From Octopus sinensis (Eukaryota): a stretch of 64,000 nt of DNA. Below the pieces are notes generated by a model. That model ran no database searches and was not told where the DNA came from. It saw only the letters and a program-made list of their open reading frames with translations. The DNA lies in NCBI RefSeq assembly GCF_006345805.1, contig NC_043015.1, positions 48,236,001-48,300,000 of the forward strand. Direction: 5' to 3'. Shown here in pieces: positions 21,001 to 57,200 of the stretch; the stretch's first letter is position 1; every line of letters begins with the position of its first letter. A program made the position numbers and the translations under genes.

Positions 21001-24000
21001 TCAGTTTGAACATAGGACAGGTAGACTATTTGGGCTGGATATGACTGGTTTAAATACTAAAGGGTTAAATTATATTTTAAAACAAAATACTTATTAATTC
21101 TTCATAGCAACAATTTTAAAACTATACATATGATATTTCTTGTGTTTTAGATCAGTTGGGTTCGTATTAGAAGGTTATCCAAGTATGGTAGATGATGTCA
21201 GTTTAACAGCAAATAGTGGATGTTTCCCAGAAGTTGCCATCATCTTAAACATTGAAGCAGAGGATGTTATTAACAGATTGTTGCCAGCCAGACTAAATTC
21301 TTGGAAAACTAAAAGGGATGCGAAACTTGAAAAAGTAGAGAAGAAAAAGGATCAAATAATGCAGGAAAGAGTGAGTAAACATTTCAGAGATTATTATCAT
21401 TGATTTCATTTTTAAAGCATTATTGTTAGTTCGTTAGTTCAGAAATTCTGTTAATTTTTTTTTGCTTATTCTCTCCTTATTGGGCAATCTCACTAATGCC
21501 AATGGCAGGAAGAAGAGCACTCACTACGCACCGTAAAGTGGTTGACATTAGGAAGGGCATCCAGCCTTAGAAGTCATGCCAAAGCTGACGCTGGAGCTCA
21601 ATGTAGCCCTATGGCTCGCCAAATCCTGCCAAATCATTCAACCCATCTCAGCATGGAAAACAGTTGTTAAATGATGATGATAACAATGATGATGACAAAG
21701 ATGATGATGATGAGGAGGAGGATGGTGATGATTATATTGATGAGGATGAAGACGACAGGAGTTTAATATCTTTGGAGGGTCATTATGCCAATAATGTACA
21801 CCAGCACTGGATTCTGTTTCACTTCTTTATTAATTGTCAATTGGTTAGCTGTTAAACCAATTAACTCATCAATCATCTGATTAATCATCATCATCATTTA
21901 ACGTTCATTTTTCCACGATGGCATGGGTTGAATGGTTTAACTGAACACTGGTAAGCTGGAGAGCTGCACCAGTTACCAATCTGATCTGGCATGGTTTCCA
22001 CAGCTGGATGCTCTTCCTAACGCCAACCACTCCAAGAGTGTAGTGGATGCTTTTTACGTGCCAGTTATATAACTCTGACATTGGCCCTGACTATGATCTC
22101 AGTTGCCTTGATGAGTGTTTTTCTCAAGCACAGCATATTGCCAAAGGTCTTAGTCACTTATCACTGTCTTCACGAGGACCAATATTTGAATGGTGCTTTG
22201 TACATGGCACCGGTATGGGTGCCAGTTATGCGACACTGGCATTGACTACAACTATGATTTCACTTGGCTTGACAGATCAAACAGTGCATTTTATGTGCCA
22301 TTTATGCAACACTGACATCGACCATGACTACAATTTCATTTGGTTTGACTGGTCGAATGGTGTTTTTTAGGTGTCACTGGCACAGGTGCCACTTACATAA
22401 CACTAGTATCACCCATGACTATGATTCCACTTGGCTTGACTGGTCTTCTCAAGCATGGCATATCACCAAATGTCTCAGTCACTTGTCATTGCCTCCCAAT
22501 CAGTTATGGTGACGAGCTGGCAGAAACGGTAGCACATCAGGCAAAATGCCTAGCGGTATTTCGTCTGTCGTTACGTTCTGTGTTCAAATTCCGCTGAGGT
22601 CGACTTTGCCTTTCATCCTTTCAGGGTCAATTAAATAAGTACCAGTTACACACTGGGCTTGATGTAATCAATCCCTTTGTCTGTCCTTGTTTGTCCCCTC
22701 TATGTTTAGCCCCCTGTGTGCAATAAAGAAATAAATCAGTTATGTTTGTCAGGGGTCATTTTATCACCAATTGTGCTGATGAGGTGTACAGGTGGCTCCT
22801 CAAAGTATAAGTAAAAGTGAGTGGAGACAGAGGGACTAGCAGTATTTGGGTGGGGGGTGGGGTGGGATAAATGCAAAGAGAATAGAAGGGGGCAAGAGAT
22901 GGAGAAATGCACCGGCATCTAACCCCTATTTTATAATCTCAACAGCTTATACCTTGTTATATAATCTCTCATCACTTAATACCCAGTTATAATTTTAATT
23001 CACCTCTTTATTTCCCCCAACAAATAATATGGTTATCTCCGATCATTGCTTATTTTTATTCAAAATATTTTATTTTATCCGTTCTCCGTTTCAAGAGTGA
23101 AAACATTGAAAAAAGACGTATGGAAATATTAAATGAACTCACCGAAAAACAAAAAGCAGCAGAAGAGGTATTTACTTAATTATATTCTAATAATTAATTA
23201 ATAATTTAAGGCAGTGAGCTGGCAGAATCGTTAAGCCGTTAGCATACTGGACAAAATGTTTAGTGGCATTTCAACTGTCTTTACGTTCTGAGTTCAAACT
23301 CCGCTGAAGTTGACTTTGCCTTCCATCCTTTCAGAATTGATAAAGTAAGTACCAGCTAAGTGCTGGGGTCGATATAATCGACTTTCCCCTCCCCCTGAAA
23401 TTGCTCGCCTTGTGCCAAAGTTTGAAATCAATAATTAATTGATAGTTAAATTATTGGGTTGTCCAGAAAGTTTGTGCCGATTTATAGTAGCTTACATTTT
23501 GACTTATTTTAGAACATGGTTGAGTCCACAAAATAGGATTTGACTACACCTCCATTTAGAGCACAGTTAAAGCTATCTTTTTGTGGAAGAAGGTTTATGT
23601 TCCTATAACCTGTATTAATTCTGTAACCCTTTAAAATGGAAAATAAGAAAGTTCATTTTCGGCACTTCATGCTTTTCTTTTTCTGTAAAGGGAAAAATGC
23701 CTCACAAGCAACCAAAGAAATATGCACAGTTTACGGTGAGGTTTCTTTATCCGAAAGAACTGTACAAAAGTTGTTCACAAGGTTCTGAGATGGAGATTGT
23801 AGGCTTATTGATAAAGAGCGATCAGGCAGACCATCCACTACAGATGATGACCCAATCAAGTCATTAATTGAGAACAACCCACACTGCACAACCCAAGAAT
23901 TGGCAGAAAGCCTCAACCTATCAAAATCTGTCATTCATGAGTACCTGGTAAAGCTTGGGTACATAAATCGCTATGATGTTTGGGTACCACATGAGTTGAG

Positions 24001-26335
24001 TGAGAAGAACCTTTTGGATCGCATTTCCATCTGTGATTCGCTTTATAAACGGAATGAAAATGCACCTTTTTTAAAGTAAATTGTGACAGGTGATGAGAAA
24101 TGGATTATCTACCGAAATGTTCAGAGAAAGTGATCTTAGAGTAAGCGACATGAGCCACCCTTAGCCACCCCAAAAACAGGTCTTCACCTTTAAAAAATCT
24201 TGCTTTGGAGGAGGAGGAGGAGGAGGACAATGATGATGATGTGGTAATGACTGATGATGATGATTACTACTACTGCTACTCTTGATGCTGCTGCTGCTAC
24301 TACTACTACTACTACTATTACTACCTTAGGAAAGAATTACAGTTGTAATGATGTAATTTTTCCTTCTTGTAACTAAGCTGCATTTTTATTTTTTGTAAAA
24401 TTTTCATATCATTTAAAGGAAGGAAAAGAAGAGGATCCTGATGAAGAAATGGACATTGAATCAACACTGTTGGAAGAATTTCCGGTAATTATAAGTTATG
24501 TCTTCAACTTAAGCTTAACAATAGATTTTAGAACATTGAGTAAGTTTCTCAATAAACTTTGGAAACATATTGTGGTGTTTTACAATTTAGAAATAAAAAA
24601 GTGAGTATTTTTTTTGGCCATTTATAATCCTATTTTACTTTATAGAACTGGGTTAATCCTCTGACCACCTTTTAGAACTGAGATAATCCTCAGTTCATTT
24701 TATAGAATTGGAATAATCCTCAGTCTATTTTATTGAAGTGAGATAATCCTCAGTTCATTTTATAGAACTGGGATAATCCTCTGCCAATTTTATGGAACTG
24801 GGATAATCTCCTCTTCATTTTATAGAACTGGGATACTATAATGTATAGAATCCTGTTTTAAATAAAGTTTTACAAAGAATATTTATTGAAAGATAGTCTT
24901 TGAATAGTTTTCTCTTTTGATATAATTTCTTCGTAAAACTACGTACCTATGGATTCTGTCTTGCAGTTGCCTGAAGATGACAGAAGGGATGAATTTGAAA
25001 CTGAAGATGATGCCAGAGCTAGATTTTCTAAAGATATTTCAACGTTATATGAGGCAGAAAATTCAGAAATAGAAAAAGTTCGGGTTAGTTACTATGATTT
25101 TCCTTTGCTTTTTTTCTTTACAACATCAAGGGGTAATAACAGATGTAGACAAAAGCAAGAGAAGGTGATGTTCAATAAGAGACAAACACTCTCATTCCTA
25201 TATACACACACACACATAAATCCCGTCTTCTATCACCACCCCTTGTTTGATGTAAATCACTGTCTTTCAGACCTTTTTATTAATTACTAGCATTATGACC
25301 CGGCAACGACGGGTCATAGTGCTAGTGCATGTATATATGTGTATATATAAGTGTACATATTACATGTACATCTATATATATACATCTACACATAAAATAC
25401 AAAATACAAAGTTATATCTTGATATCGCCAGTGATAACAATACTCAAAATATATAACAGACTGGAATTGTAGGCCCGTCTCTTACAATTTCGATCAATTG
25501 GATCTTGTCCTCCCTCTTGTATAGAAGTGTGGCTACAATCCAGCCTACCTCAACTTCTGGGGGGGGGAGAGACATTTTAAATTTTTATCCGGTACATCCT
25601 ACGTCCCAGATATAAAGGTAAAAATAAAATATTTCCACTTTGCAAGTTCGAGTCGAGTACTCCCTTGCACGTTCCGTTGACTCGAACCTTGCTTCTATTG
25701 TGGCGAATTTACCGCCTCTGGTTAGATATCTTTCATAGTCGCACCAAGACACTTTTCGAAGGTGCTTTCCTCCAGGTGTTCAAATCTTTTTTTTCTACAT
25801 TGTATACTTTATAGACAATAGTCTTTTCTTTAATTTAATTTTTTATTATCCAACTGGACTATTCCATTTCTGCACGCTAATTTTATTTTTAACTTATTCC
25901 CATTCATGTGAAACCACTTATTCAAGTTCAAATCATTGATGCAATTTTATACCAATTGCTATTTTTACTTTTGTTATGTTACGATTATATTATACTTTAG
26001 TTTGATTTTAATTATTACTTACTACATATAATTCAATTGTTATTATTATTTTTATTGTTAAAGTAAAAGTATCTGACATAAAATAACATGTAATACTGAA
26101 ATAGTGGAGAAGATATATTACTATGGGCTCGTTCTAGGCAAGAAGTTGAACATTTTTTTTGCCCATGAAACTACATGGACCCTAAGTAAGGCATGTGTAA
26201 AATTTGAATGGAATTGGTTGTGTAGTTCTCAAGTTTTAGGGAAACACACAGACAGACAGACAGACAGACAGACACACATCTCAGTTTTATATATAGAGAG
26301 ATTCTCTAATGATTCTCCCAGCTCATCGCCTTAGA

Positions 26336-26371
<36 letters not shown>

Positions 26372-29300
26372 CCTGATGCAGTACCAGGCAGTGGCTCTCA
26401 TGGCTTCTGATCTTAACTGATTGAAAGTGTTATCATGTACATTGTTTTGTCTTGGTATAAAAGATGGGCTACAGCAAATATTCTGCTCAATACCACAGAT
26501 TTGCTTGTCAGTTGTTTGACCATAACCAGTTGAGCATGTCCCTTAGTGGCTGACGATATGTGCATCTCTGATCACGAGCAGAAGTAGTGGGGGAGCATCA
26601 TAGCCATGTGTTGAGAGGGATTCTTTGGGGTTTGAATAATTCACCTCTGGAAACATGGGTGGTTCTTTCAACATCCTTAAACAACCCTTATTCAGGGACC
26701 TTTTGAGCAGGATGGGCTACTCAACCTGAAGAAAATTCTAACTGGGCCCCACCTGCAAGGTCATGCGCTGTTTATCTTGATATGAGATCACCATGTCGCG
26801 CACATATGGTTGTGATGCATGTGCCTGGTGTACCTTTATCAGACGGGTAGTCATGATGGGTATATTGGGTTTCGTATATTTTACCCCAGTGTCACTTTGA
26901 TGACATGCACTGCTCTCTCACTCAATAATAATAATAATAATAATAATATTTTTGGGTGGGGGTTATTAATGTGCTTGATTCAGTTATAAAGACTATAAAA
27001 TGTCTCCTTGTTGCCCTGCCACCAATTTTTGCTTTTGTCCCATCTCCCAACCATCAATGTTTTATTCTTTGTTTATATACCATTAAAAATTTTGCTGTAA
27101 CTTTTGTGATTGATGTTATTTTTGTTTGTTGATGTTTTACTTAAATGGTGGTCAATCACAGTTTTGTTCTTTCACATCCACAAATTCAAACAGTTTGTTA
27201 ATACCATTGTATATCATTGTCTTATTCTTTTATATTTAACAAACAAGTCAGTAGCAGGGGAGGGTGCACTGAATGTGTAGCTGCTAGAATAAGAATAGCC
27301 TGGGCAAAGTTCAGAGAGCTCTTACCTCTGCTGGTGACAAAGGGCTTCTTGCTCAAAGTAAAAGATGGACTGTATGACACATGTGTATGAACAGCCATGC
27401 TACATGGCAGTGAAACATGGGCCGTGACTGCTGAGGACATGCGTAAGCTCGCAAGGAATGAAGCCAGTATGCTCCGATAGATGTGTAATGTCAGTGTGCA
27501 TACTCGACAGAGTGTAAGTACCTTGAGAGAAAAGTTGGACCTAAGAAGCATCAGATGTGGTGTGCAAGAGACACGACTGCGCTGGTATGGTCATGTGGTG
27601 CGAATGGATGAGGATAGCTGTGTGAAAAAGTGTTACACCTTAGCAGTTGAAGGAACCTGTGGAAGAGGTAGATCCAGGAAGACCTGGGATGAGGTGGTGA
27701 AGCATGACCTTCGAACATTAGGCCTCACCAAGGCAATGACTAGTGACTCAGACCTTTGGAAATATGCTGTGCTTGAGAAGACCCAGCCAGCCAAGTGAGA
27801 CCATAACCACGTGGCCTATGCCAGGGGTGTAACCAGCCCACTTATGCACATCTTTCCTTCATTGGACACTAAACTCTGATTGTGAAGACCTGTTGAGGCA
27901 AGTGAAATCAAAATCGAAATCAAATTAGATGACTGGCTTCCATGCTAGTGGAGTGCTAAGAGCACTATCCGAGCGGGATCGTTGCCAGAGCAGCTAACTG
28001 GCTTCCGTGCTGGTGGCATGTAAAAAGCACCATTCGAGCATGATCATTACCAGCGTTGCCTTACTGGCACTTTTGCTGGTGGCACGTGAGAAAACATTCA
28101 AGTGAGATCGTTGCCAGTGCCGCTGGAGTGCAGGTGGCAAGTAAAAAACACCATTTGAGCGCTGCCGTTGCCAGTACTGCCAGAATGGCCCTCATGCCGG
28201 TGTTACATAAAAGCACCCACTACACTCTCAGAGTGGTTGGCATTAGGAAGTGCATCCAGCTGTAGAAACTCTGCCAGATCAGATTGGAGCCTGGTGCATT
28301 CCTCAGTCAAATCGTCCAACCCATGCTAGCATGGAAAGTGGACGTTAAACGATGACGACGATGAAGCCACTGCCGCTGCCTACGAAACATCTTTACTTAT
28401 GTGTTTCAAAATATCATCTCCCTTAAAATAACTGCTACCAGGACTCCACTTGTTCTAATTTGTCTTTGAATGCAAACAGATGGCAATAGCCAAGACATTA
28501 TGTGTCTGAAAAATTCTCTCTATCAACATATAATGAAGGACAAACAACTATGGTATATCTTCTTTAAGCTATATATAAAAATATCAACTAGGAACAGGAG
28601 TGTATTGGTGTAGTATTTATTTCATTTTGTTCTGTTATACACTGTGAGGGCAAATGCAATCAGCCATCTAAAGACTCTGACCAGAAGTCCCGCCTAACTG
28701 GAAATCCCTTCACTGCAGACCAGCTCACTAGCTAGCCTGTAGGGAAGTTCCTGACTACAGTTTGTCTGTTATCAATTCTTGGGTAGTGGCCTACAATGGT
28801 TTAGCAGCTGAAATATATTATCTACATCTGGAATGATGCCACCAACATGAACTTTTGAAATGTGTTTGTAGTCAAGACTATTATAGTAATTTCATTTATG
28901 AACTTTTTTCACAAGTTAGAAATTCTCTGAAAGATATCTGCGATACATATTTTGTTCTAAAAGATTTTCTGTATAATTGCAGATTGGTTTGGAGGATCAG
29001 CTAATTCCAACCATTATTATCGATGCCAATCAAAGACAGCATATTGTAAATTATATTTTGATGCGATCCTTGAAACCCTATGTTACATATCGACAGAGTC
29101 TGTTTGAAAGAGTGTATCCCGTGAATGAATCAACAGCAAAGTCTCTTCTCCACTCAGGATATAAGCTGCTAAGTCATTTGGGATATTGGTGTCCTGTTAT
29201 GGTAATTCTCACCCTCATGTCACTTGCATATTAATTGTTCTTTATGTACGGACATCTAGTATCATGTAATTGTTTCTGATGTGTTTATGAAACTACTGAT

Positions 29301-39505: not shown

Positions 39506-42500
39506 ATAATATCAGGGTAATAAATATTTTATAAACTTTTACTACCCGTGGCCTAGCATGTAGAAAAAATTAGTCAATAGACTATATATTATTCATATAA
39601 ATGCAGTGTACATTTAAACATATAAGAGGTATCCTTCATAAGATTCCTTTAATGCTAGAAGGAACAGCTAAAGTCCAAACCACTATTAGGGATAAAAAAA
39701 AAACTCGAAGGGAATGAAAAATAAAAACATTTACCATCTATTTCCTAGACCATGGTTTCTGACTTTTTTTTAGCAAATATGATGAAGACTTCACCTAGCA
39801 AATTATTTTATTTGCTAAAAAAAAATGTCAGAAACCATGGTCCAGGAAATAGATGGTAAATGCTTTTATTTTTCCTTTCTTTGAAGTTTTTTTTATTCTT
39901 CCTAGTAGTGGTTTGGACTTCAGCTGTTCCTTCTAGCATGAAAGGAATCCTATGAAGGATACCTTTTATGTGTTTAAATGTACACTGTATTTACATATAT
40001 ATATGTGTGTGTGTGTATGTATATATATATATATGACAGGCTTCTTTCAGTTTTCATCTACCAAATCTACTCACTAGGCTTTAGTCAGCACCAGGCTATA
40101 GTAGAACACACTTGCCCATAGTGCCATGCAGTGGGACTGAACCCAGAACCAGTTGGTTGGTGGAGTGAGCTTCTTATCATACACCTACACCACCAGCACC
40201 TGTGGTGATAGCTTTTGTTTTTTTTTTTGTTTTTGTTTTTATCTAGATTTACATATTAAGATATGTAAGCAATTAATTACAGCTTCTATTCTAAATCTAC
40301 TTTCGTCAAATTTCATCTTCATCATCCTCACCATCATCATCCCCGCCTCCTCCCATCATCATCATTATTTAATGTCCACTTTTCCATGCTTGCACGAATC
40401 AGACAAATTCGTTGAGGTAGACTCTCTACAGCTGGATGCTCTTCCTGTTGCTGAGCCTCACCAAGTAAATGAGGTGCTTCAAACTTAAATAGCACAGTGG
40501 CCAGACAAGATTTCACAAACTTCGTAGGCTGACTCTGAAGGAGTGAATACTGCAACTGTGAAATCTTGCGTGCATTAATTTCAGCTCTTCTTATTAGTAA
40601 CTACATTGTTTCTTCCTAGGTAAACCGACATCTGACTGTTCAAAGAACACTTCAAAAGTAACTGGTAGCAATTTCTCTTGAAAATGGTCAAATCTTTCAT
40701 CAACATTCATCATCATCATCATCATCATCATCGCCACCACCATCATCAGCAGCAGCAGCACCACCACCATCATTTAATGTCTACTTTTCCATGCTTGCAT
40801 GAATCAGACAAATTCATTGAGGCAGACTTTCTACAGCTGGTTGCACTTCCTGTTGCTAACCCTCACCTGTTTCCAAGTAAAGTGCTTCAAGCATAAATAG
40901 CACAGTGGTGTCATCAAGTACCTGCAGAAAAAGGTTTTTAGCCCCACCAGGGACATCCATGCTGACCTGGTTTATAACATTAGGGTATTACATTCCAGCT
41001 TTATCAAAAGTGCATAGCTGAATTTAAGAAGGGAACTGACCTTTCAACGTATTTTAGAACATGGTTGAGTCCATAAAATAGGATTTGACTACACCTCTAT
41101 TTAGAGCACAGTTTAAGCTATCTTTTTGTGGAAGAAGGTTTATGTTTCTATAACCTGTGTTAATTCTGTAACCCTTTAAAATGGAAGATAAGAAAGTTCA
41201 TTTTTGGCACTTGATGCTTTGGGAACCAGACAAAAATTGCTGCAGCTCGGCTGGGATGTGTTACCCCACCCTCCATATTCACCAGATGTTGCTCCTTCGG
41301 ATTTCCACTTATTCAGGTCTCTGCAGAATAGTCTTAATGGTAAAAATTTCAATTCCTTGGATGATGTAAAAAGATACCTTGATGTATTCTTTGCCATGAA
41401 ACCACCTCAATTCTGGGATGGGTTTTTTTCAAGTTAAAGGAAAGATGGAGACGCACTGTGCAACAAATGGTTCATATTTGGTTGATTAAAAATGTAATGG
41501 CAAGTATTTATTGACCTTTTTCTTTCTTTTAAAAATCGGCACGAACTTTCCGGACAACCCAATACATGCCTGGTCACTGGAAATATTATTTTTCTTGGAA
41601 TAATTAAGGGTTGGCAGCAGGAAACCTGTCTCAAAATAAATTCTGACTGACCTATGCAAGCATGGAAAAGAGGATATTAAGTGGTGGTGATAATGATGAT
41701 GGTGGTGGTGGCAATGGTTGTTGCTGTTGTTGTTGCTGCTGTTGCTGCCGCTGACGCCACTGCCGATGCCGACGACGACCATCATCATCATCATCATCAT
41801 CATCATCTATGCAAGCTGTGACAGATGGCGTGATATTATTTTACTACACCTTCGCATTTCAGATGTAATTAACCCTTAAAAAAATTACTTAATCTTGCTC
41901 AATTACTTCCTTATCTTTCAGTTATGTTTTTGACGGGATACCTGCGACTGACAATCTAGCCAAATTACTGGATGCCAGGAAGATTATTCCAGTAAAGGTC
42001 TTAGTGTTGAATACTGCCATGGAAGAAACTGCATTCAGAGGATCTCTTGAACGAGTCGAGAAGGAAGCGTGAGTCTGATTGAAAATACTTGCCTCCAGTA
42101 AAATCTAAATTTTGCCTGATGTAATTCTGGTCATTTTAATCCTTAATCTTTTAGTATTTAGATTACTCTGTCAAATGTAATGCTTGTTGCTGGTGTCATG
42201 CAAATGACACCCGTGAAATTATAATTGTGGCCATAGCCAGTAGCATGATCTGCGAATGTTGGGCCTCATGAAGGCGAGGAATAAGGTGGTGAAGCATGAT
42301 CTTTGTATGTTGGGCCTCATGGAGGCAAGGAACAAGGTGGTGAAGCATGATCTTCGTCTGTTGGGCCTCATGGAGGCGAGGAATAAGGTGGTGAAGTATG
42401 ATCTTTGTATGTTGGGCCTCGTGGAGGCGAGGAACAAGGTGGTGAAGCATGATCTTCGTCTGTTGGGCCTCACGGAGGCAAGGAACAAGGTAGTGAAGCA

Positions 42501-44393
42501 TGATCTTCGTATGTTGGGCCTCGTGGTGGCAAGGAACAAAGTGGTGAAGCATGAACTTTGTATGTTGGGCCTCATGGAGGCGAGGAATAAAGTAGTGAAG
42601 CATGATCTTTGTATGTTGGGCCTCGTGGAGGCAAGACACAAGGTGGTGAAGCATGATCTTCGTCGGTTGGGCCTCATGGAGGTGAGGAATATATGTATAT
42701 ATGTATATATGTGTGTGTGTATATGTTTGTGTTTGTCCCCCCCAACATTGCTTGACAACCGATGCTGGTGTGTTTAGGTCCCCGTAACTTAGCGGTTTGG
42801 CAAAAGAGATCGATAGAATAAGTACTAGACTTCCAAAGAATAAGTCCTGGGGTCGATTTGCTCGACTAATGGCGGTGCTCCAGCATGGCCGCAGTCAAAT
42901 GACTGAAAGAAGTAAAAGAGTAAAAGAGAGTTACATTACACATCCAGCAGTGTACACTAGCCTCATTCCTTTCTAACCTTTGCATATCCTCTGCATTCAG
43001 GGCTCACATCTCATGTAGAATTGCTGTCTGTATACAGGCATCATACTATCTTCCTTTCACTCGGAGAGAAGACCCTTTGTGTGTACAAAAAGTAAATGAA
43101 AATGAAATCAACTGAAGTATTGTATTTAAAATTTTAAAAAAGAAGCCCCAAGTGCAAGCCGACCATTTTTACAAACAAGTACATTCCATGCTTTCTATTC
43201 AATTGTTTAGAAATTCAAGCAAACTTTATCTCTCTGCTGCTATATCTGTTTGCTTCAGGTCTTATTCCGAACATAACAGTGCCCAGATCCTTGCAACAAA
43301 ACATCAAGTCTACAAGAAAGAAAACCAAACCATACAGGACTGGTATCAGAAGACTTTTGAGAACCTTTGTATAGTCATTGGGCAACAGTCCAAGTGGGCT
43401 CTTTGGAATGAAATTAAAGAGGCCATATCGGGTTCTGTTGAAAAAGTTCAATCGTATTTAGAAAATGTCAAGAAAGGTAAAGTTTACTTTGTAAAGAAAG
43501 GTTTTTTTATGGCTTAGCTGCCAATTAAAATTTCTGTGGATTTATTGTTCTTTTTGTTAATATTTTGCTAATTCTTCAAAAGAGCAAACAAATTTTGGAA
43601 TTTTTAAATTTTCATCGTGCTATGCATCAGTATTCTTTTTATTAACAATCACCATGACTGCCACCACTACCACCACCACCACCACCACCTGCACCACCAC
43701 CACCACCACCACCACCACCTGCACCACCAAACCAACATCACTAGCCCCACCACTATAACAACAACCAGTACTACCACTGCCACTGATGCCATCAATACCA
43801 CCACCCACAGGACTACCACCAACACCACCACTACCACCACCATCAACTCTACTAATACCAATACCTATTTCTTTACTACCCACAAGGGGCTAAACATAGA
43901 GGGGACAAACAAGGACAGACATAGGTATTAAGTCGATTACATCGACCCCAGTGCGTAACTGGTACTTAATTTATCGACCCCGAAAGGATGAAAGGTAAAG
44001 TCGACCTCGGCGGAATTTGAACTCACAACATAACGGCAGACGAAATACCGCTAAGCATTTCGCTTGATGCGCTAACGTTTCTGCCAGCTCGCCGCCTATA
44101 CCAATACCATCTCTACCATTATCACCACAACCAATGCCTCATTTGCAGGCTTTTTTTATGGCACTGCACAAACACCTTTACATGAAACTTTCAATCAAAT
44201 AGAAATCATTGGATTCTTTTGAACTATAGGCACAGGAGTGGCTGTGTGGTAAGGAGCTTGCTTACCAACCACATGGTTCCAGGTTCAGTCCTACTATGTG
44301 GAACCTTGGGCAAGTGTCTTCTACTATAGCCTCGGGCCGACCAAAGCCTTGTGAGTGGATTTGGTAGACGGAAACTGAAAGAAACCCGTCATA

Positions 44394-44448
<55 letters not shown>

Positions 44449-44667
44449 CGGAGTAAACACATAAATGTGAAACAAGTGGAAAAAAGAGTACTCAATACCA
44501 GTGGTAGAGTAATATGCTTTATTTTAAGCAGCAGAAAATTCAACAAATCTGTTACTCTGAGTTTCTCGTTGCCGTTCATCAGACAGTTCTAGCAAGAACT
44601 GTCTGATGAACGGCAACGAGAAACTCAGAGTAACAGATTTTGTGAATTTTCTGCTGCTTAAATAAAG

Positions 44668-44924: not shown

Positions 44925-44983
<59 letters not shown>

Positions 44984-45017
44984 TATATATATATAGATAT
45001 ACATATACATACATACA

Positions 45018-45050
<33 letters not shown>

Positions 45051-47143
45051 ATAATAATATTAGGGAATATATCCAAATTACAGGGAAAAAAATCAGATTT
45101 AGGATTAAATCCAATTTTATAGTAAAATATTATAAAATATTATTTGAGACAAAACCACTATTTTGCAAAACAAACAAGGAAAGACTTAATCATACATAAA
45201 ATTTAATAAATAGTCAAAAAAACCGCCACTACAATCGTTCTTGTCTTGATCGACAATCTTCAGGTGGACTTCCAATCTAAAAAATCAAAATTTTAAAATA
45301 TAAAAATAATACTTTTAAATAATTAAAGTATAAATGAAAAAATATAAGTATATAATCCATATATAACCTATATATAATCCATATCGAAAATATAGACTAA
45401 TTACCACGAATTCCCTAAAAAAAACCATGATAAAACAAAACTCTTAAAAACATATAACGATAAAATCTCCCTTTTCTAAACTCTATAACAAACCTATAAA
45501 GTAAACCCCCTAACCTAAACATTCACACACAAATACACACACGTAAACCACAGACTCACGACTTATACACATACCTATACTAACTTATAAACCTCAATAT
45601 ACACCAAAACCCACTCCCTCCCCACACAGACAAATTAAAACATACATCCCAAAACCTAAATAACAAACCCATATACACATTCACACACAAAACACACACT
45701 CACACGCAAAACACTCACACACAAAAGATACATATACTCCCTCACATATACGCCTATACATACTCACTAAACTCGACATATACAACAATACTTACACACC
45801 CACAAAAAACATTATATACATTTATGAGCTTTAACTCACCTTAGCATCTCTAACAAACAACTTGCAGTAACCCAATCCCATTCTCTATGCCTACCTCACT
45901 ACTACACTATTCCATTCACATTCCAAGCAACGCTAGTCCACCACCCGGTTATTCACGTGGCAAAACGAACACCACTCAAAAATTATGAATGAAACAATGT
46001 AAAAAAATTACCAACACCTAAAATAGACAAAATACCACAAATTACCTAAAAAAAACCATGATAAACCAAAACTCATAAAAGCATATAACGATAAAATCTC
46101 CCTTTGCTAAACCCTATAACAAACTTATATAGCAATCCCCCTAACCTAAACATTCACACACAAAAAACCCACACGTAAACCACAGACCCAAGACTTATAC
46201 ACAAACCTATACTAACTTATAAACCTCAATATACACCAAAAACCACTCCCTCCCCACACAGACAAATTAACACATACATCCCAAATCCTAAATAACAAAC
46301 CCAAATACACATTCACACACAAACACACACACACGCAAAACACACACACACTACAGATACATATGCTCCCTCACATATACGCATATACATACTCACTAAA
46401 ACTCGATATATACAACAATATTTACACCCACACTCATACAGATAAATAAATTAATTATACAATTAAAAACTCACAACCAATCTCATATACATAAACACTC
46501 TTATGAAAACAACAATAAATACATCGTAATTAACCAGAATATCAAAAATAACATTATGACATAAGGATAAATCAAATACATACTTACAATTCAGTTACAA
46601 ATTATGAAGTGAAATTAGATTCTTAGCCGTTAAAAAACCAAACAAAATTACGTTACCATGGAAATAACTAATGTAAAAAAAGAATACGCGCCATAGAAAG
46701 TAAACGTCATTCATAGTATGAATGGAGAAATATAATAAATGGAACTAAAAACTATTTCCACGTAGCAAACCAACGCTACTTAAAAAAATTTATTATGAAT
46801 GGATTCTTTAAAAACTATCATGAAAAATCAATTATATACATTTATGAGCTTTAGCTCACCCTAGTAACTCTAACAAACAACTTACAGTAACCCATACTCA
46901 ATGCCTACCTCATTACCACCCTAATCCATTCACAATTCCAAACAACACTAGTCCACCACCCGGTTACAATTCCCAACTCTACCCATTCATTCACAATTTC
47001 AACGACGTTCCCTTCAACTGTCGATCAAGACAAGAAACGATTGTAGTGGCGGTTTTTTTTTGACTATTTATTAAATTTTATGTATTGATTAAGTCTTTCC
47101 TTGTTTGTTTTGCAAAATAGTGGTTTTGTCTCAAATAATATTT

Positions 47144-47196
<53 letters not shown>

Positions 47197-48057: not shown

Positions 48058-50801
48058 CAGCAGCAGCAGCAGCAACTGTAGAAGTAGGGCAATGGTGGTG
48101 GTGGTGGTGGTGGTTGTGGTGGCGGCAGTGGTGGTGGCGGTGGTGGTATGTGAACAATTCCAAAACTTTCTTTTAATGTCTTTATATAAGTTCTCTCTGT
48201 TTTGTGACAAACCTAATCAAGTGACAAACGAGCAAATACAAACGAAAATGTTTTCTTCCAAACTCCATCTCGGTTTTTTTTTTTTCCTTATCTTCTTTCA
48301 CGTGTCTTTCTGTCTTCCTTGCCAGATCAAGCAGCCAGGCTCCAGGGTTTATGTATAACTAAAGAAACATTCTTCAGCAGACTTGGTGAATTCCGTGAAT
48401 ACTGTCCGGTTACCCTTGCGCTCGATGGAGAATTAGCAGATTGTTCAAAAGATGAATCGATGAACCTTGTTGCTGAATATCAAGGTAATCTTGGCTCAGA
48501 TTTCAATGCTCAGTGAAAGAATAAGCTTCATGAAAGAATGGTCCCTCCTGGGTTCAGTACCACTGTGTGGCACCTTGGGCGAAATGCTTAGCGGTATTTA
48601 GTCTGCCGCTACGTTCTGAGTTCAAATTCTGCCGAGGTCGACTTTGCCTTTCATCCTTTTGGGGGTCAATTAAATAAGTACCAGTTACGCACTGGGGTCG
48701 ATGTAATCGACTTAATCCTTTTGTCTGTCCTTGTTTGTCCCCTCTGTGTGTAGCCGCCTGTGGGCAGTAAAGAAATAGGTATTTCGTCTGCTGCTACGTT
48801 CTGAGTTCAAATTCTGCCGAGGTCGACTATGCCTTTCATCCATTTGGGGGTCAATTAAATAAGTACCAGTTACGCACTGGGGTCGATGTAATCGACTTAA
48901 TCCTTTTGTCTGTCCTTGTTTGTCCCCTCTATGTTTAGCCCCTTGTGGGTAATAAAGAATTATATACTAGGCTTTAAGCCTAGTATAATAACATATAAAT
49001 TAAGGATAAAGAAAGAAAGAATAGAAGAAGCAAAAGTAAAGGTGAAGAAAAATAACTGCATACAAGCCAATTAGGCATAGGGTCAGGGTTTGGGATTCAC
49101 TGGCTAAGACTAATGAACAAAGAGTAGAGGGCAGAGATGTACAAAATTTAGGGGTATTTTGTGTATCTCCAGCCTCCTCCTTTTATAATATATATAATGA
49201 AATTATTGTATACAGTGCTCAGGTGCACCACAACTTGTCAGAAAGTGCGTATAGAGTATATGCAGTAATGTATAAATGTCTGGAAAGAGAACAGTGTATG
49301 AGTCAGATACATGCTTGCGTGTGTATGGAGGGGAGGAAATCAGGTGTAGTGTTGGCGAATCTCAGGAAGCATGGAAGTTTTGAAGGATGCAGTGCTCCGA
49401 CAACTAACAACTGATGCCGGCAGTTTGTTCCATGCTTCAGCAACTCTCAGCGTGATAAAATGTTTCCTAAAGTCATGGGAGCTGTGCTGTTTTCTGACTT
49501 TGTAAATATGTCCACGGGTGTTAGACGGGTGGAGTTTGAAAAGGTGCTCTTTAGCCTTAGCTAGTGAATCCTAAACCCTAACCATATGCCTAATTGGCCT
49601 GTATGCAGTTATTGTTCTTCACCTTTTGCTTTCTCTATTCTTTATTCTTTCTTTATCCTTAAGTCACATTGTGTGATTATGACAAGGGAAGGATGACCTC
49701 CCTTTGCAAATACCATAAGGGCACTGAAAGTGTGCCTAAAGCCAGCTGGAGACGATGTTCTCCTGGGGCTACAAGCTACAGTAACACCCACCCTTAGTGG
49801 TTAGCCATATTGAGATGGCAAGTATACCTCACATTGTCGTGCAGTTACTGTTTATACCTCGTTCAGAGATTTATTATTGCTTGCATACAGTTTTTCGAGA
49901 TCAGTGACGAAAAGTACTGGAAAAACGATATAAGTATTTGCATTGGGACCCCTTTCATCGAAAACCGGTGATTGCCGTACGCTGAGGACAGGTCAATACC
50001 TAGAAACTGCAGTCCGTGCGTATCACTTAGGTTAACGAGGGAAGGATGACCTCCCTTTGCAAATACCATAAGGGCACAGAAAGTGTGCCTAAAGCCAGCT
50101 GGAGACGATGTTCTCCTGGGGCTACAAGCTACAGTAACACCCACCCTTAGTGGTTAGCCATATTGAGATGGCAAGTATACCTCACATTGTGTGATTGTTT
50201 TATAGCAAAATTCATATCAATACAAGAAACCAAAGTAATTACATTGTTTCCTTATATCACATTAGTTATATTTGTGGCACAAATATAACATAAGAAAACA
50301 ATTTATATAAATTTTGCTAAAAATGGTTTATTCTTTATGTTGGAAATCTATATGGTCATCTGCAATTGAGGAGAGCAGCTTCTTTCAAATTAATGTAACG
50401 TTTTCACATTGATTGATTAAATGGAGCCACTTGAAACAGCCGTAATGCACTGATACCTGGACATCCTTGTTATTTATTTGTTATCATCATCATCATCATC
50501 ATCAGCATTGTTTAACGTCCGTTTTCCATGCTAGCATGGGTTGGACGGTTCGACCGGGGTCTGGGAAGTCAGGAGGCTGCACCAGGCTCCAGTCTGATCT
50601 GGCAGTGTTTCTACAGCTGGATGCCCTTCCTGATGCCAACCACTCCATGAGTGTAGTGGGTGCTTTTTACAGGGGCGAGAGGAGGCTGGCAACGGACACG
50701 ATTGGTTGGTGCTTTTCACGTGACACCGGCACGGACACCAGTCAGGCGACGCATATATATATATGTGTGTGTGTGTATATATATGTGTATGTGTGTGTGT
50801 G

Positions 50802-53063: not shown

Positions 53064-54191
53064 GTTTGACTTTTGCTATATATTGGTACAAGTTGGCTCC
53101 AACTCTCACCCAGAGACCTCAAGAGACAACATTATGTTTGTTTTAAGCCTTGAGATTTCATAGAAAGTATTTTGCGTAGGATATGAGCAGTTCCCATGAG
53201 CACTATCTCTTGAATTTCTGCCATTTTGGGGTTTCCTGGTATCTGAGTTAGGTAGAGATCAGCCCCTTTTGCTATCATTCCCAGAGCACCTATGTATGAC
53301 AACAGGTATTGTTTTAGGCTTCAGATTTCACATTTTGCTGATTTCTGTTTCAAGATCTTTATATTTGCTCAGTTTTTGGTAGGTCTTCACAGATACGTTT
53401 ATATCGATTGGGACAGTAATATCAATGAGGAGGCATGTTCTTTGTCTGAAGTCATTCAATATGATGTCTGGCCTATTTGCATCTATCTTTCTGTCAGTTT
53501 GAATGGGGAAGTTCCAGAGGAGTGAGATGCAGTCATTTTCAAGCACTGGGGGTGGTTTGTGTTCCCACCAGTTTTTTACATGGGGCAAATCCAGGTTTTT
53601 GCAGATTATCCAGTGAATATATTGTGCAGCTCTATCATGCCTGTTGAGGTACTCTGTAGGTGCTAGAAGAATGCACTTGGAGACAACATGATCAATGGTT
53701 TCATTTTGTTGTTGACATACACGACATGTTGGGCTACTGCCGTTCTTTATAATATGCTGGCCTGGTTGTTTCTTGTTGGTAGGCATTGATCTTGAGCTGC
53801 TATGATAAACCCCTCTGTTTCAGATTTTAAGCCAGAGGCCATTAGCCATTGATGGGTCAGGGCTTGGTCAACATCTGCATTTATTCGCTCTCTTTGGGTA
53901 TTTGCCATAGAGAGGTTTTTCTTACCATTTATCATTCAGAATATCTAAGGCTGCAGTTTTAGCACGAGTTTTAATGTGCTTAGCTTTTTCTGTGCTTGTT
54001 TCTTGTATGTCTATCTCTAATTCCGAAATTTGTTGTATTCGGAATTCACTTAAATATTCCTTTGCCTGTTTTGTTACTGAGTATGATGCTTTCTTGTTTT
54101 CATGTTTTGAGACAAGTTTTAACATCCAGTCCTCAGAGTTTTTCGGGTAGGTGTCTAGGCCAATTGTAGCAATCTTCATTGTTATTGCCAG

Positions 54192-54229
<38 letters not shown>

Positions 54230-57200
54230 GTAAAGTAAAAAATGTTTTAAGACCTTTTAAAACAGTTTGAACAACATTTGATGGTTTATTTTTACTTTTA
54301 TTCAGGAAAATATTACAAAATGGAAAATGAGGCACGAATGGAGACATTTTTAAATGAACCACAAAAATTTGTTCCTCCTTACGCTCCAATGGCTTTACCC
54401 CCTCAAGAACTGATCCCACAGAAATGTTTAAAGAAAGAAGAAACCCCACAATTTGAATACTTTGGTTACTGTCCCGTGACATACTATGAAGGAAAATGTC
54501 GGTATGATATTTTAAGGGGTTTTTTACAAAATATTGGTCTAAGTTTTCATTATTCATTTCAAAATAACAAAGGTTTTAATCTTTCTTTGTCTTCGATAAT
54601 GCTTTGTAAGTGAAATTGACTGATAGAAACTGTGGGGAAGCCCATCTTGCTATGTGATAGCAATTTATACTCTTGTTGAGGCAAGTGAAATCAAAATCAA
54701 ATTCGATGACTGGCATCCGTGCTTAGTGGAGCGCTAAGAGCACCATCCGAGCGTGATCGTTGCCAGAGCAGCTAACTGGCTTTTGTGCCGGTGGCACATA
54801 AAAAGCACCAATCGAGCATGATTGTTACCAGTGTTGCCTTACTGGCACATGAAAAAACATTCGAGTGAGGTCGTTGCCAGTGCCACTGAACTCGCTCCGG
54901 TGCCCTTCCTAACACCATCCACTCCAGGAGTGTAATAGGTACTTTTACATACCTCCGGCTACAGTTCACGGATACCATTCACATGGCATTGGTAACAACG
55001 GCTATGATTCACGAATGCCATTTACATGGCACCAGCAATGACCATGATTCACAGATACCATTTACATAGTGCCGTCAACACCCACAACTCACAGGTGCCA
55101 TTTACATAGCGCCACCTTAATTTGTTTATAACAGTTAATGTTTTATAAGTAAAGGCACATGGCCTAGTGGTTAGAGTGTCGTGCTCACAATTTCAAAATT
55201 GTGTTTCAATTCCTGAATCAAGTAATGCATTGTATTTTTGAGCAAAACACTTCATTTTATATTGCTCCAGTCCACTCAGCTGCAAATGAGTGACCCTGTG
55301 ACATACTAGCATCCCATTCAAGAGCAGGAGTGATCTTTGTCATTCATATGCCATGGAAACTAGGTAACTGTCTTTATGAGCCCCAAGACATGAGACAGTC
55401 ATGTCCAGTTGGTAGGTTTACTTAATCTCTCTATATATAAACGGCAAAATATCTGTGTGCGTGTCCTTTATACAAATCCACAATTTTTCAGTTAGAGAGC
55501 TCACACTTTCTGTGGTCATTCAAAACCTTCCAAGGGTGGTCGTGCACATCTTTACATTTTCCCAGTCACCCTGCAAAGCCATTAAAAAATCAATAGAAGT
55601 GACTGACTTTTTTGTGAATTTTGTATCCAAATCCCAATCAAAATGCCCGAAACTTGATACGCCAATTGAATGCCAGATAGCTGTATGTGATTGGTCAGAG
55701 ATTTGGACAGTACTCGCATGTATGTGCGCACGCACGCAGCTGTATATGCATGCACTAGCACTATGACCCGGCATTGCCTGGTCATAGTGCTAGTGTTTTA
55801 TAAACTGTTTGGTCAGGCTTTCACTTATGCTGTCTTTTCTTTTTTTTTTTATTTTTGTTTTGGGTTTTTGTTTCTAGATATGAAGCAATTACTCTTGGTC
55901 AACCAGATTTAGTTGCTGAATATCAGAAAAAATATTATTGTTTTGCCTCAGAAGAGAAACTGGAAAAATTCATGAGGTAATTAATACTTCATAATTTCTT
56001 AATAAAATAACATTGTATAACAAAATTTAAAAAAAAAAAAATTTGTCTTTGGTCAGTAATTGTTATTTCCTATTTGCTTCAATCTAGAAATCAAAGGAAA
56101 TGACTTCTATTCCCTTCAAACATTGCTTTTGTGACCTAGATATCAATGTTTTGAAACTGACTTATTTTCCATTACATTTCACACAGATTCAGCACTGAGT
56201 TGCTGAAGCAGAAATATCGTTATAGCAAATATTCTGCTCAGTACCACAGATTTGCTTGTCTGTTGCTTGACCATAACCACCTGAGCATGTTCCTTAGCGA
56301 CTGACAATATGTGTGTATCTTGGATTATGAGCTGGTGTAGTGGGGAGGGATTATTTTGGTTTTGAAAAAATGTAACAAAAGCAAAGTCTGAAGAAAACAT
56401 TAGCCATTTTTCATACTTTGTAGGGGTAAGCAGGTAGAAAATAACAGTTGCTACCCAAGGGCAAAAATCATGTTACACAATGTAACCATTCTAACTGAGC
56501 AGAGTTCTGGTTACAATATAGTTCTGCTCAATCAAGATTAACCAGGATTAAACAACAATGACTGCAGGATGAGGTAAACTTCATTAATTATGAAGAATTG
56601 GTAATAATTAATTAAATAGATTATTGATTTTTTATAGCAAATTAAATAAATAAATAATAAATAAATAAATAAATATTACCACTCTCTAGTTTTGGAGGAA
56701 AGGATAATTCTTTCTACTAAAGACACAAGGCCTGAAATTTGTGGGGAAGGGACTTGTTGATTACATCGACCCCAGTGTATAACTGGTACTTAATTTATTG
56801 ACCCCGACAGGATGAAAGGCAAAGTTGGCCTCAATGGAATGCCATATAGCATGAATCGTCAACTCTTTTTTTTTTTTGCCAAATGTACCAGTTTCCTGCA
56901 ACACAATTTTTCCACTGGCCAGGGGATCAGATGCATGATAAAACACAATAAGCCGAATAATCATCATCGTTTAACGTCCGTTTTCTGCGCTAGCACGGGT
57001 TGGATGGTTCGACCGGGGTCTGGGAAGCCAGGGGCTGCACCAGGCTCCAGTCTGATCTGGCAGTGTTTCTACAGCTGGATGCCTTTCCTAACGCCAACCA
57101 CTCTGCGAGTGTAGTGGGTGCTTTTTACGTGCCACTGGCACAGGTGCCAGGGGAGTCTGGCATCGGCCACGATCGGTTGGTGCTTTTAACGTGCCACCAG

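What the first reader, a model, noticed from the sequence alone, without database searches (positions are those of the whole stretch)
45051..47147. 2.1-kb non-coding element whose two inverted ends each hold a complementary part of one canonical HHR
Seen: the minus strand at 45267-45226 reads CCAC CUGAAGA UUGUC-GAUCAA-GACAA GAAC GAUU GUA GUGG, with perfect stems I and II and one A missing from GAAA. The other arm (47019-47049) keeps GAAAC intact but lacks the CUGAAGA. The interior is strongly strand-skewed (C/A-rich), with duplicated blocks at 45411/46041 and 45811/46831 and no ORF. It is inserted in (TA)n. Inference: a non-autonomous PLE whose consensus HHR is intact. Its arms could also pair in the AK9 pre-mRNA.
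Basis: partly seen in the sequence, partly recalled or inferred. Interest (0 to 1): 0.72.

Follow-up and report, generated by a model that had tools for sequence, protein, structure and literature searches.

The report
Two-armed Hydra-clade Penelope retrotransposon insertion
This is a broken, back-to-back copy of the control region of a young Penelope-type jumping gene sitting in an AK9 intron, not a split ribozyme; the copy is ordinary, but its many sister copies likely record which RNAs such elements copy and why they keep their intron.

Summary
The sequence features are real; the 'split hammerhead' reading is not. 45051-47018 (minus) is the 5'-truncated pLTR of a protein-coding Hydra-clade Penelope-like element (5.7-kb unit, RT plus C-terminal endonuclease). 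47019-47147 is an inverted 129-bp piece of the same end. The intact HHR occurs 1607 times in G000, the one-A-short form 61 times (3.7%; 3-nt runs lose a base at 2.8%). The arms face opposite ways, so no single RNA carries both in sense. The skewed interior is upstream sequence, a 23-nt first exon and a 1.3-kb retained intron.

Family record: 79 of 80 two-armed insertions have one tailed and one untailed end. 1395 arms are spliced, and none sampled extends upstream of the inferred start; 0 of 158 promoter-bearing copies are spliced. 39 of 100 arms begin 1-36 nt after the HHR cut site. This favours sense-RNA templates primed twice; in-vivo cleavage is suggested, not shown. The scan noted spliced fold-backs and two fixed ends before, on other DNA (e1-9506236, e1-8807173).

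The parts
45051..47018 (-). Long arm: 5'-truncated pLTR/3'-UTR of the autonomous element, unspliced, ending at the tailed 3' end
   Evidence: 97.7% identical over 2046 columns to the 3' part of the unit in L031; 12 substitutions and 3 deletions against the majority of 17 copies
45051..45130 (-). Tail, between the two fixed 3' ends (about +100 and +189 nt from the HHR cut site); stops short of the ORF's ATG at +238
45226..45267 (-). Type I hammerhead of Hydra-clade layout, one A short in GAAA in this copy; predicted cut between 45230 and 45229
   Evidence: layout compared by eye with File S2 of PMC8557442
45277..46587 (-). Retained GT-AG intron of the element's 5' leader (1309 nt in L031); most of the strand-skewed interior
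   Evidence: GTAAGT donor and pyrimidine-AG acceptor; 1395 genomic arms carry the exact spliced junction
46588..46610 (-). 23-nt first exon; inferred transcription start at 46610 in an Inr-like motif (consensus recalled)
   Evidence: spliced arms begin 0-15 nt inside it (52 arms); 0 spliced against 158 unspliced copies when upstream bases are present
46611..47018 (-). Sequence upstream of the inferred start (3' UTR of the unit, likely promoter side), cut off by the 5' truncation
   Evidence: continues into the unit in L031 and others
47019..47147 (+). Short inverted arm (-27 to +100 from the cut site): 3' half of the HHR, untailed end; blunt join to the long arm without microhomology
45389..45951 (.). 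Internal duplicated blocks (partners 46020-46433 and 46823-46966), inherited from the master element
44925..45050 (.). (TA)n target, left; any target-site duplication is hidden in the microsatellite
47148..47195 (.). (TA)n target, right
43116..43514 (+). Frame holding an AK9 exon upstream of the insertion (host gene; insertion is intronic, long arm antisense)
   Evidence: E 4.6e-11 to AK9, chain 9d2f_A residues 1527-1606
54251..54520 (+). Frame holding an AK9 exon downstream of the insertion
   Evidence: E 1.3e-16 to AK9, chain 9d2f_A residues 1651-1726

Best explanation
This is one dead, head-to-head insertion of a young protein-coding Hydra-clade Penelope-like retrotransposon, likely made by two reverse-transcription events on sense RNA. 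Shown: the long arm is the unit's truncated pLTR with intron, HHR and tail; the short arm is the same end inverted and untailed; nearly every two-armed copy has one end of each kind. Inferred: the element's endonuclease cuts (TA)n, and the two target ends prime at two UA-rich internal sites (+100, +189). Both cDNAs run towards the RNA's 5' end, stop, and are joined head to head. Both priming sites lie in the 5' leader, before the ATG. Spliced messages therefore give only short hairpins ending at the start site, and copies that carry the promoter can come only from unspliced read-through RNA. That explains intron retention. This locus came from such unspliced RNA. The missing A is likely a homopolymer slip (assembly error or decay) with no function.
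For: Unit with ORF and tandem pLTRs, period 5734 nt. Hydra motifs in the ORF pieces, and 190 longer relatives including a Hydra vulgaris protein at 39%, E 9e-42. HHR 1607 intact against 61 short; one-base loss in 3-nt runs 45 of 1631. One tail plus one short end in 79 of 80 insertions, p 7e-23 against independent mixing (83 of 85 with the 5 pairs of low cover added back). Spliced junction 1395, unspliced acceptor 1153. Promoter-side bases plus exon 1 are followed by the donor G 158 times and by any other base 0 times. Both arms are of the same template class in 28 of 32 pairs, against 11 expected (permutation p 1e-5). The untailed arm reaches more than 20 nt further 5' than the tailed arm in 13 of 32 pairs, which simple fold-back of one tailed cDNA does not give. 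In vitro, a Poseidon protein cuts and extends both strands from two internal sites that bound the tail (PMC11167929).
Against: No locus-specific reads were available, so error and true decay of the A cannot be told apart. Every ORF copy translated had frame breaks, and Pfam gave no RT or GIY-YIG hit for the ORF pieces or six relatives; the assignment rests on motifs and homologues, with no tree against reference Hydra sequences. The unit (5.7 kb) and tail (about 89 nt) exceed the published <3 kb and 30-40 bp. Priming here sits at UA-rich sites that match the target, whereas PAc priming was reported as non-homologous. Asymmetric arms could also arise by later deletion in an unstable palindrome, which weakens the fold-back test. 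Part of the loci were chosen by similarity or as close pairs, and the pair table was entered by hand.
Confidence: 0.8

Rival explanations
1. Split ribozyme: a non-autonomous element whose two arms each supply part of one HHR.
For: In this copy neither arm holds a complete core.
Against: The arms are on opposite strands, so any one RNA has one sense and one antisense arm, predicted to pair with each other. 1607 of 1668 exact matches are intact. Short-arm breakpoints vary widely across copies, and only 4 of 100 arms begin between -48 and -1. The sequence is part of an ORF-bearing unit.
Confidence: 0.02
2. Fold-back: one cDNA primed at the tail site folds on itself, is copied back, and the endonuclease trims the second arm at +100.
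For: Gives one tail plus one short end and same-class arms automatically. Near-perfect palindromes without spacer exist (L123). PMC8557442 ascribes the tail to endonuclease resolution.
Against: The untailed arm is longer at its 5' end in 13 of 32 pairs, and in six of them the tailed arm starts at or beyond +100. Two internal start sites on both strands were seen in vitro.
Confidence: 0.13
3. Self-priming on an antisense template explains inverted ends and intron retention (PMC3846280).
For: Published hypothesis; it fits head-to-head arms and unspliced long copies such as this one.
Against: 1395 arms have the GT-AG intron removed exactly, and those sampled stop at one sense start site; only sense RNA is spliced. 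Spliced and unspliced insertions share the same two 3' ends.
Confidence: 0.04
4. A DNA transposon or MITE with terminal inverted repeats.
For: 129-bp inverted ends, TA context, many short hairpin copies.
Against: Fixed 3' ends with variable 5' junctions, precise intron loss, an RT ORF in the same unit, asymmetric tail.
Confidence: 0.01

Closest known systems
Hydra-clade C-terminal EN+ Penelope-like elements (PMC8557442; section 11, passages, supplement part 2 of 59 seen)
   Same: DKT, CxCx5C linker, CxxC and CxH around E and N, no CCHH, (TA)n targeting, type I HHR with the same layout (U after the first core, stem II opening U-A, palindromic stem III), inverted 5'-truncated copy plus one tail.
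   Different: KWK instead of RWK; 5.7-kb unit with about 2.9 kb between stop codon and HHR; 1.3-kb leader intron; about 89-nt tail; asparagine-rich stretch after the RT. The listed Hydra-1_Obim has a different HHR sequence and no pLTR described, so this is another family (compared by eye).
Drosophila virilis Penelope (PMC2377424 passages; PMC4209133 parts 1-2 of 4)
   Same: Internal promoter, short first exon, 5'-UTR intron ending just before the HHR, intron kept in long genomic copies.
   Different: Intron 1309 nt rather than 75 nt. Splicing leaves this HHR unchanged (acceptor 9 nt before stem I). Spliced genomic copies are abundant here; the passages read mention none.
Poseidon of Anolis, PAc (PMC11167929, parts 1-2 of 4)
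   Same: Two internal reverse-transcription start sites bounding the tail; AT-rich targets; both strands cut.
   Different: Start sites lie upstream of the ATG and end in UA runs matching the target. Here an excess of arms begins just after the HHR cut site, whereas PAc RNA-seq showed no reads ending there and cleavage was dispensable in vitro.
Metazoan non-LTR retrozymes (bioRxiv 10.64898/2026.07.22.740005, part 1 of 5)
   Same: Non-coding, type I HHR, PLE pLTR-related.
   Different: No tandem HHR-bearing monomers; this is a truncated copy of the coding element.

Membership tests
EN+ Penelope-like elements | Single ORF with RT and GIY-YIG endonuclease | tested here: inconclusive
   RT motifs (DIxxYYxSI, YRDD) and a YIG endonuclease region align with 700-aa relatives, but the copies read are frame-broken and Pfam gave no hit
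EN+ Penelope-like elements | pLTRs in partial tandem, inverted 5'-truncated copy, tail at one end | tested here: met
EN+ Penelope-like elements | HHR in the pLTR | tested here: met
   1607 exact intact motifs
Hydra clade | DKT motif | tested here: met
   SDKTRN in the L031 ORF
Hydra clade | CxCx5C linker, CxxC and CxH, no CCHH, endonuclease C-terminal | tested here: met
   CTCRDKSNC, CYLC and CRH in the last ORF piece
Hydra clade | RWK motif | tested here: inconclusive
   RIKWKAF aligns with RMRWKA of relatives; K in place of R
Hydra clade | Insertion into (TA)n | tested here: met
   3' flanks of the mapped arms
Hydra clade | Generally under 3 kb (descriptive, not defining) | tested here: not met
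   unit period 5734 nt; ORF region about 2.5 kb
Hydra clade | Monophyly with reference Hydra RTs | not tested
   no tree built; a Hydra vulgaris protein is among the hits
Type I hammerhead ribozyme (family consensus) | CUGANGA, GAAA, NUH with three stems; self-complementary helix III for dimers | tested here: met
   (helix III 8-mer pairs with itself, -5.8 kcal/mol); the monomer fold is weak and not the MFE in the stretches folded; Rfam gave no HHR hit on the window copy
Type I hammerhead ribozyme (family consensus) | Self-cleavage | not testable with these tools
   only indirect genomic signal
Type I hammerhead ribozyme (this copy) | Intact core on one strand | tested here: not met
   left arm GAAC, right arm lacks CUGAAGA
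Non-autonomous PLE family or retrozyme | Propagates as its own defined non-coding unit | tested here: not met
   5' junctions differ from copy to copy and the sequence runs into the ORF-bearing unit
MITE or TIR DNA transposon | Symmetric terminal inverted repeats, fixed internal structure, no RNA step | tested here: not met
   asymmetric ends in 79 of 80; spliced copies

The most novel reading that the evidence does not exclude
The family's genomic copies are a fossil record of three RNA templates of one Penelope-like element: spliced capped leader, unspliced read-through RNA, and RNA cut by its own hammerhead. The third class (39 of 100 arms starting 1-36 nt after the cut site, about 8 times the rate just upstream and 10 times the rate just downstream) would be in-vivo evidence that a PLE hammerhead cleaves in the germ line and that the cut RNA is reverse-transcribed into dead-end hairpins. 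Splicing and self-cleavage would both divert the element into short sterile copies, and intron retention would follow from priming inside the 5' leader.
Probability: 0.4. Interest if true: 0.75.

Novelty: new member of a known kind. Interest (0 to 1): 0.48.

Why it matters
The locus itself is ordinary and should be annotated as a truncated PLE, not as a split ribozyme or MITE. The family matters because three stated open points become countable in one genome. These are sense or antisense template (left open in PMC3846280), why PLEs keep introns (called unknown in PMC8557442), and what the HHR does in vivo (unclear in PMC8557442; dispensable in vitro in PMC11167929). Seven paper searches turned up no report of abundant spliced PLE copies or of copies starting at the HHR cut site; subscription papers such as Arkhipova 2003 and Pyatkov 2004 were not read.

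Tried and rejected
Rfam scan: no hammerhead hit, only low-score miRNA and repeat noise. Pfam on three ORF pieces and six relatives: nothing relevant. Raw-read check of the missing A: only assembled contigs were served, which cannot be tied to this locus. No RNA holder listed. Four runs guessed to be RNA showed no joint across the intron, uninformative for a 23-nt exon in contigs. Arms starting exactly at the cut site: 0 genome-wide for the exact 29-mer context (a terminal ambiguity letter does work); L112 (+1) and L048 (+3) are the only near cases seen. Copies ending at the cut site: none; the 13 candidates all continue into the element after small errors, and the apparent one in L043 is an assembly gap. 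Monomer folding gave no significant stability (z -0.85 to +0.82). Look-up of earlier findings by sequence: nothing. PMC13282606 (passages) gives only PLE totals. The bioRxiv preprint's supplements were not requested; they could bear on novelty.

Full report
Observation. The HHR-like string at 45267-45226 is the only hit of a type I descriptor in the window, and only when the second core is relaxed to GAA. The right arm starts inside stem II. The arms differ by five gap columns and no substitution. The left arm continues about 80 nt beyond the point where the right arm ends. The insertion lies between two AK9 exons on the + strand.

What it is. A search of the own genome G000 with the left arm gave 1338 candidates, 40 scored; apart from the window's own copy all were 99% identical and two bases longer. 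Thirty-three stretches around them showed the sequence downstream of an ORF, in tandem with period 5734 nt and in inverted arrangements. The ORF pieces of L031 carry RT motifs, DKT, a CxCx5C linker, a YIG endonuclease region, CxxC and CxH, and no CCHH. They align with roughly 700-aa relatives (190 hits among longer proteins, one named as a Hydra vulgaris protein). These are the marks of the Hydra clade (PMC8557442 section 11). The HHR layout matches that paper's Hydra table but differs in sequence from Hydra-1_Obim (by eye). Pfam does not recognise the pieces or six relatives, no tree was built, and the copies read are frame-broken. The window holds only the last 1.97 kb of the unit plus an inverted 129-bp piece, joined bluntly. 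That arrangement is described as common for PLEs.

The missing A. The exact intact 43-mer occurs 1607 times and the one-A-short form 61 times; these count arms, not insertions. In an alignment of 17 long copies, one-base losses rise with run length: 0.4% for single bases, 1.2% for two, 2.8% for three (45 of 1631), 20% for eight. The 3.7% is thus close to background, and the pattern fits long-read consensus error or slippage. Reads could not decide it for this locus. The arms lie on opposite strands. The AK9 pre-mRNA would carry the 3' half of the HHR in sense and the other arm in antisense, predicted to pair over about 125 bp. No split ribozyme can form in cis.

The interior. Many sister arms match only up to 48 nt before the cut site and then carry another short sequence. 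That sequence maps to 46610-46588 on the minus strand, followed by GTAAGT, and the -48 boundary follows a pyrimidine tract and AG. The skewed interior is therefore 408 nt of upstream sequence, a 23-nt exon and a 1.3-kb intron. Genome-wide, 1395 arms have the spliced junction and 1153 the unspliced acceptor (several subfamilies). All 52 spliced arms mapped begin 0-15 nt inside the exon, 10 of them at its first base; the mapping reference ends at that base, but the flanks printed show no upstream element sequence. In this subfamily, exon 1 with eight upstream bases is followed by the donor G 158 times and by another base 0 times. A few copies use a donor 4 nt further on (L085, L131); the test would not see these. 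The anatomy parallels D. virilis Penelope, with a 75-bp intron 46 bp after the start (PMC2377424).

Ends. 3' ends fall at about +100 or +189 from the cut site, both after UA-rich runs, both into (TA)n. Of 85 outward-facing end pairs in L031-L143 and the window, 80 had at least 90% element cover; 79 of these have one end of each kind. The five set aside were four mixed and one short-short. L031-L063 were chosen by similarity and L119-L134 as close pairs, and L036 holds a duplicated insertion. For arm classes I used the first 100 of 730 matches of a 28-mer at +65 to +92: 39 begin at +1 to +36, 35 in or beyond the intron, 19 are spliced, 4 begin at -48 to -1 and 3 at +37 to +65 (one value set by hand; long arms are under-extended by the method, which does not change their class). 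The rate of starts per base is 0.011 in +1 to +36, against 0.0014 just upstream and 0.0011 just downstream (p 6e-7 and 1e-7). In 42 two-armed insertions entered by hand (left out: single-armed loci, L107, L110, L117, L087, L056, L060, L069, one L036 duplicate), 32 had both arms in the three main classes. 28 of these were concordant, against 11 expected.

Mechanism. Shown: two fixed 3' ends paired one of each; precise intron loss; a fixed upstream limit of spliced arms; no spliced copy with upstream sequence in the tested subfamily; an excess of starts just after the cut site. Inferred: both target strands prime on sense RNA at the two sites, as PAc does in vitro, probably on one RNA molecule, and the two cDNAs are joined head to head. 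Both sites lie before the ATG (+238). A spliced message can therefore give only a hairpin of under 270 nt per arm, and promoter- or ORF-bearing copies must come from read-through RNA primed in the next pLTR, whose intron is not removed. This argues against the antisense self-priming model, at least for the spliced class. Fold-back with endonuclease trimming remains a minority option, because palindromes can lose arms later.

The ribozyme. The class starting after the cut site is the least settled point. For cleavage: a sharp drop upstream of +1, no matching excess in the AT-rich intron end (3 of 35 arms in -49 to -200), and same-class pairs. Against: starts peak at +9 to +25 rather than +1; none begins exactly at +1 in the exact context genome-wide, while 10 of 52 spliced arms are untrimmed; no copy ends at the cut; and in five pairs the short arm stops there while the tailed arm passes. 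Stalling at the folded or protein-bound ribozyme or at the U run explains the data about as well. I put cleavage at about 0.45, stalling at 0.4 and other causes at 0.15.

Papers seen: PMC8557442 (passages, section 11, supplement searches, supplement part 2 of 59); PMC11167929 and PMC4209133 (parts 1-2 of 4); PMC3846280 (passages, Discussion); PMC2377424 and PMC13282606 (passages); bioRxiv 10.64898/2026.07.22.740005 (part 1 of 5). The Inr consensus and the link of long duplexes to A-to-I editing are recalled. The label octopus comes from an earlier scan note, not from a test of mine.

Verdict. A real but ordinary truncated, inverted copy of a new Hydra-clade family. The split-HHR idea fails. 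The value lies in the family statistics, part of which the scan has noted before on other DNA; my reading was recorded before those look-ups.

Noticed in passing
window 44523-44662, tail running left to about 44500: A second head-to-head insertion of another family: 68-bp arms, each with a CUGAUGA/GAAAC hammerhead whose stems I and III resemble Hydra-2_aMil, one short end in (TA)n and one tailed end. 402 candidates in G000, 40 scored. Its coding partner was not sought.
   Followed up: partly
L031 4077-4330; L060 4322-5143: Asparagine-rich low-complexity stretch between the RT thumb and the linker, recalling the N-rich inserts of Adineta Penelope ORFs.
   Followed up: no
L085, L131, L128: Alternative splice forms fixed as genomic copies: a donor 4 nt downstream (L085, L131) and 9 extra nt on the acceptor side in both arms of L128.
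   Followed up: no
L119-L143: At least three exon-1 variants and a subfamily whose intron diverges beyond -155, all sharing the same HHR; several masters seem to have been active.
   Followed up: partly
L036 (G000:C1:102985000-102993500): A whole two-armed insertion with identical junction occurs twice in tandem, 2.8 kb apart: segmental duplication or assembly duplicate.
   Followed up: no
L077, L078, L083, L086, L093, L102, L118; L073, L084, L085: Single-armed copies, most joined straight to TA-rich repeats at the 5' side, start at the same two clusters (+9 to +32; about 5 nt inside exon 1) as two-armed ones.
   Followed up: partly
window 23789-24076 (+): Mariner-type transposase fragment (HTH; HTH_Tnp_Tc3_2 below cut-off) in an AK9 intron; 41192-41437 looks like another (by eye).
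   Followed up: no
window 53331-53819 (-), 27481-27795 (+), 49343-49570 (-): LINE C-terminal fragments (weak zf-RVT hit for the first; the others by eye).
   Followed up: no
window 42196-42894: Tandem array with open frames on both strands and a repeat of about 18 codons; not examined.
   Followed up: no
window 46610 (minus): This copy keeps the inferred start site, intron and HHR antisense to AK9, so it could drive an antisense transcript; untested.
   Followed up: no
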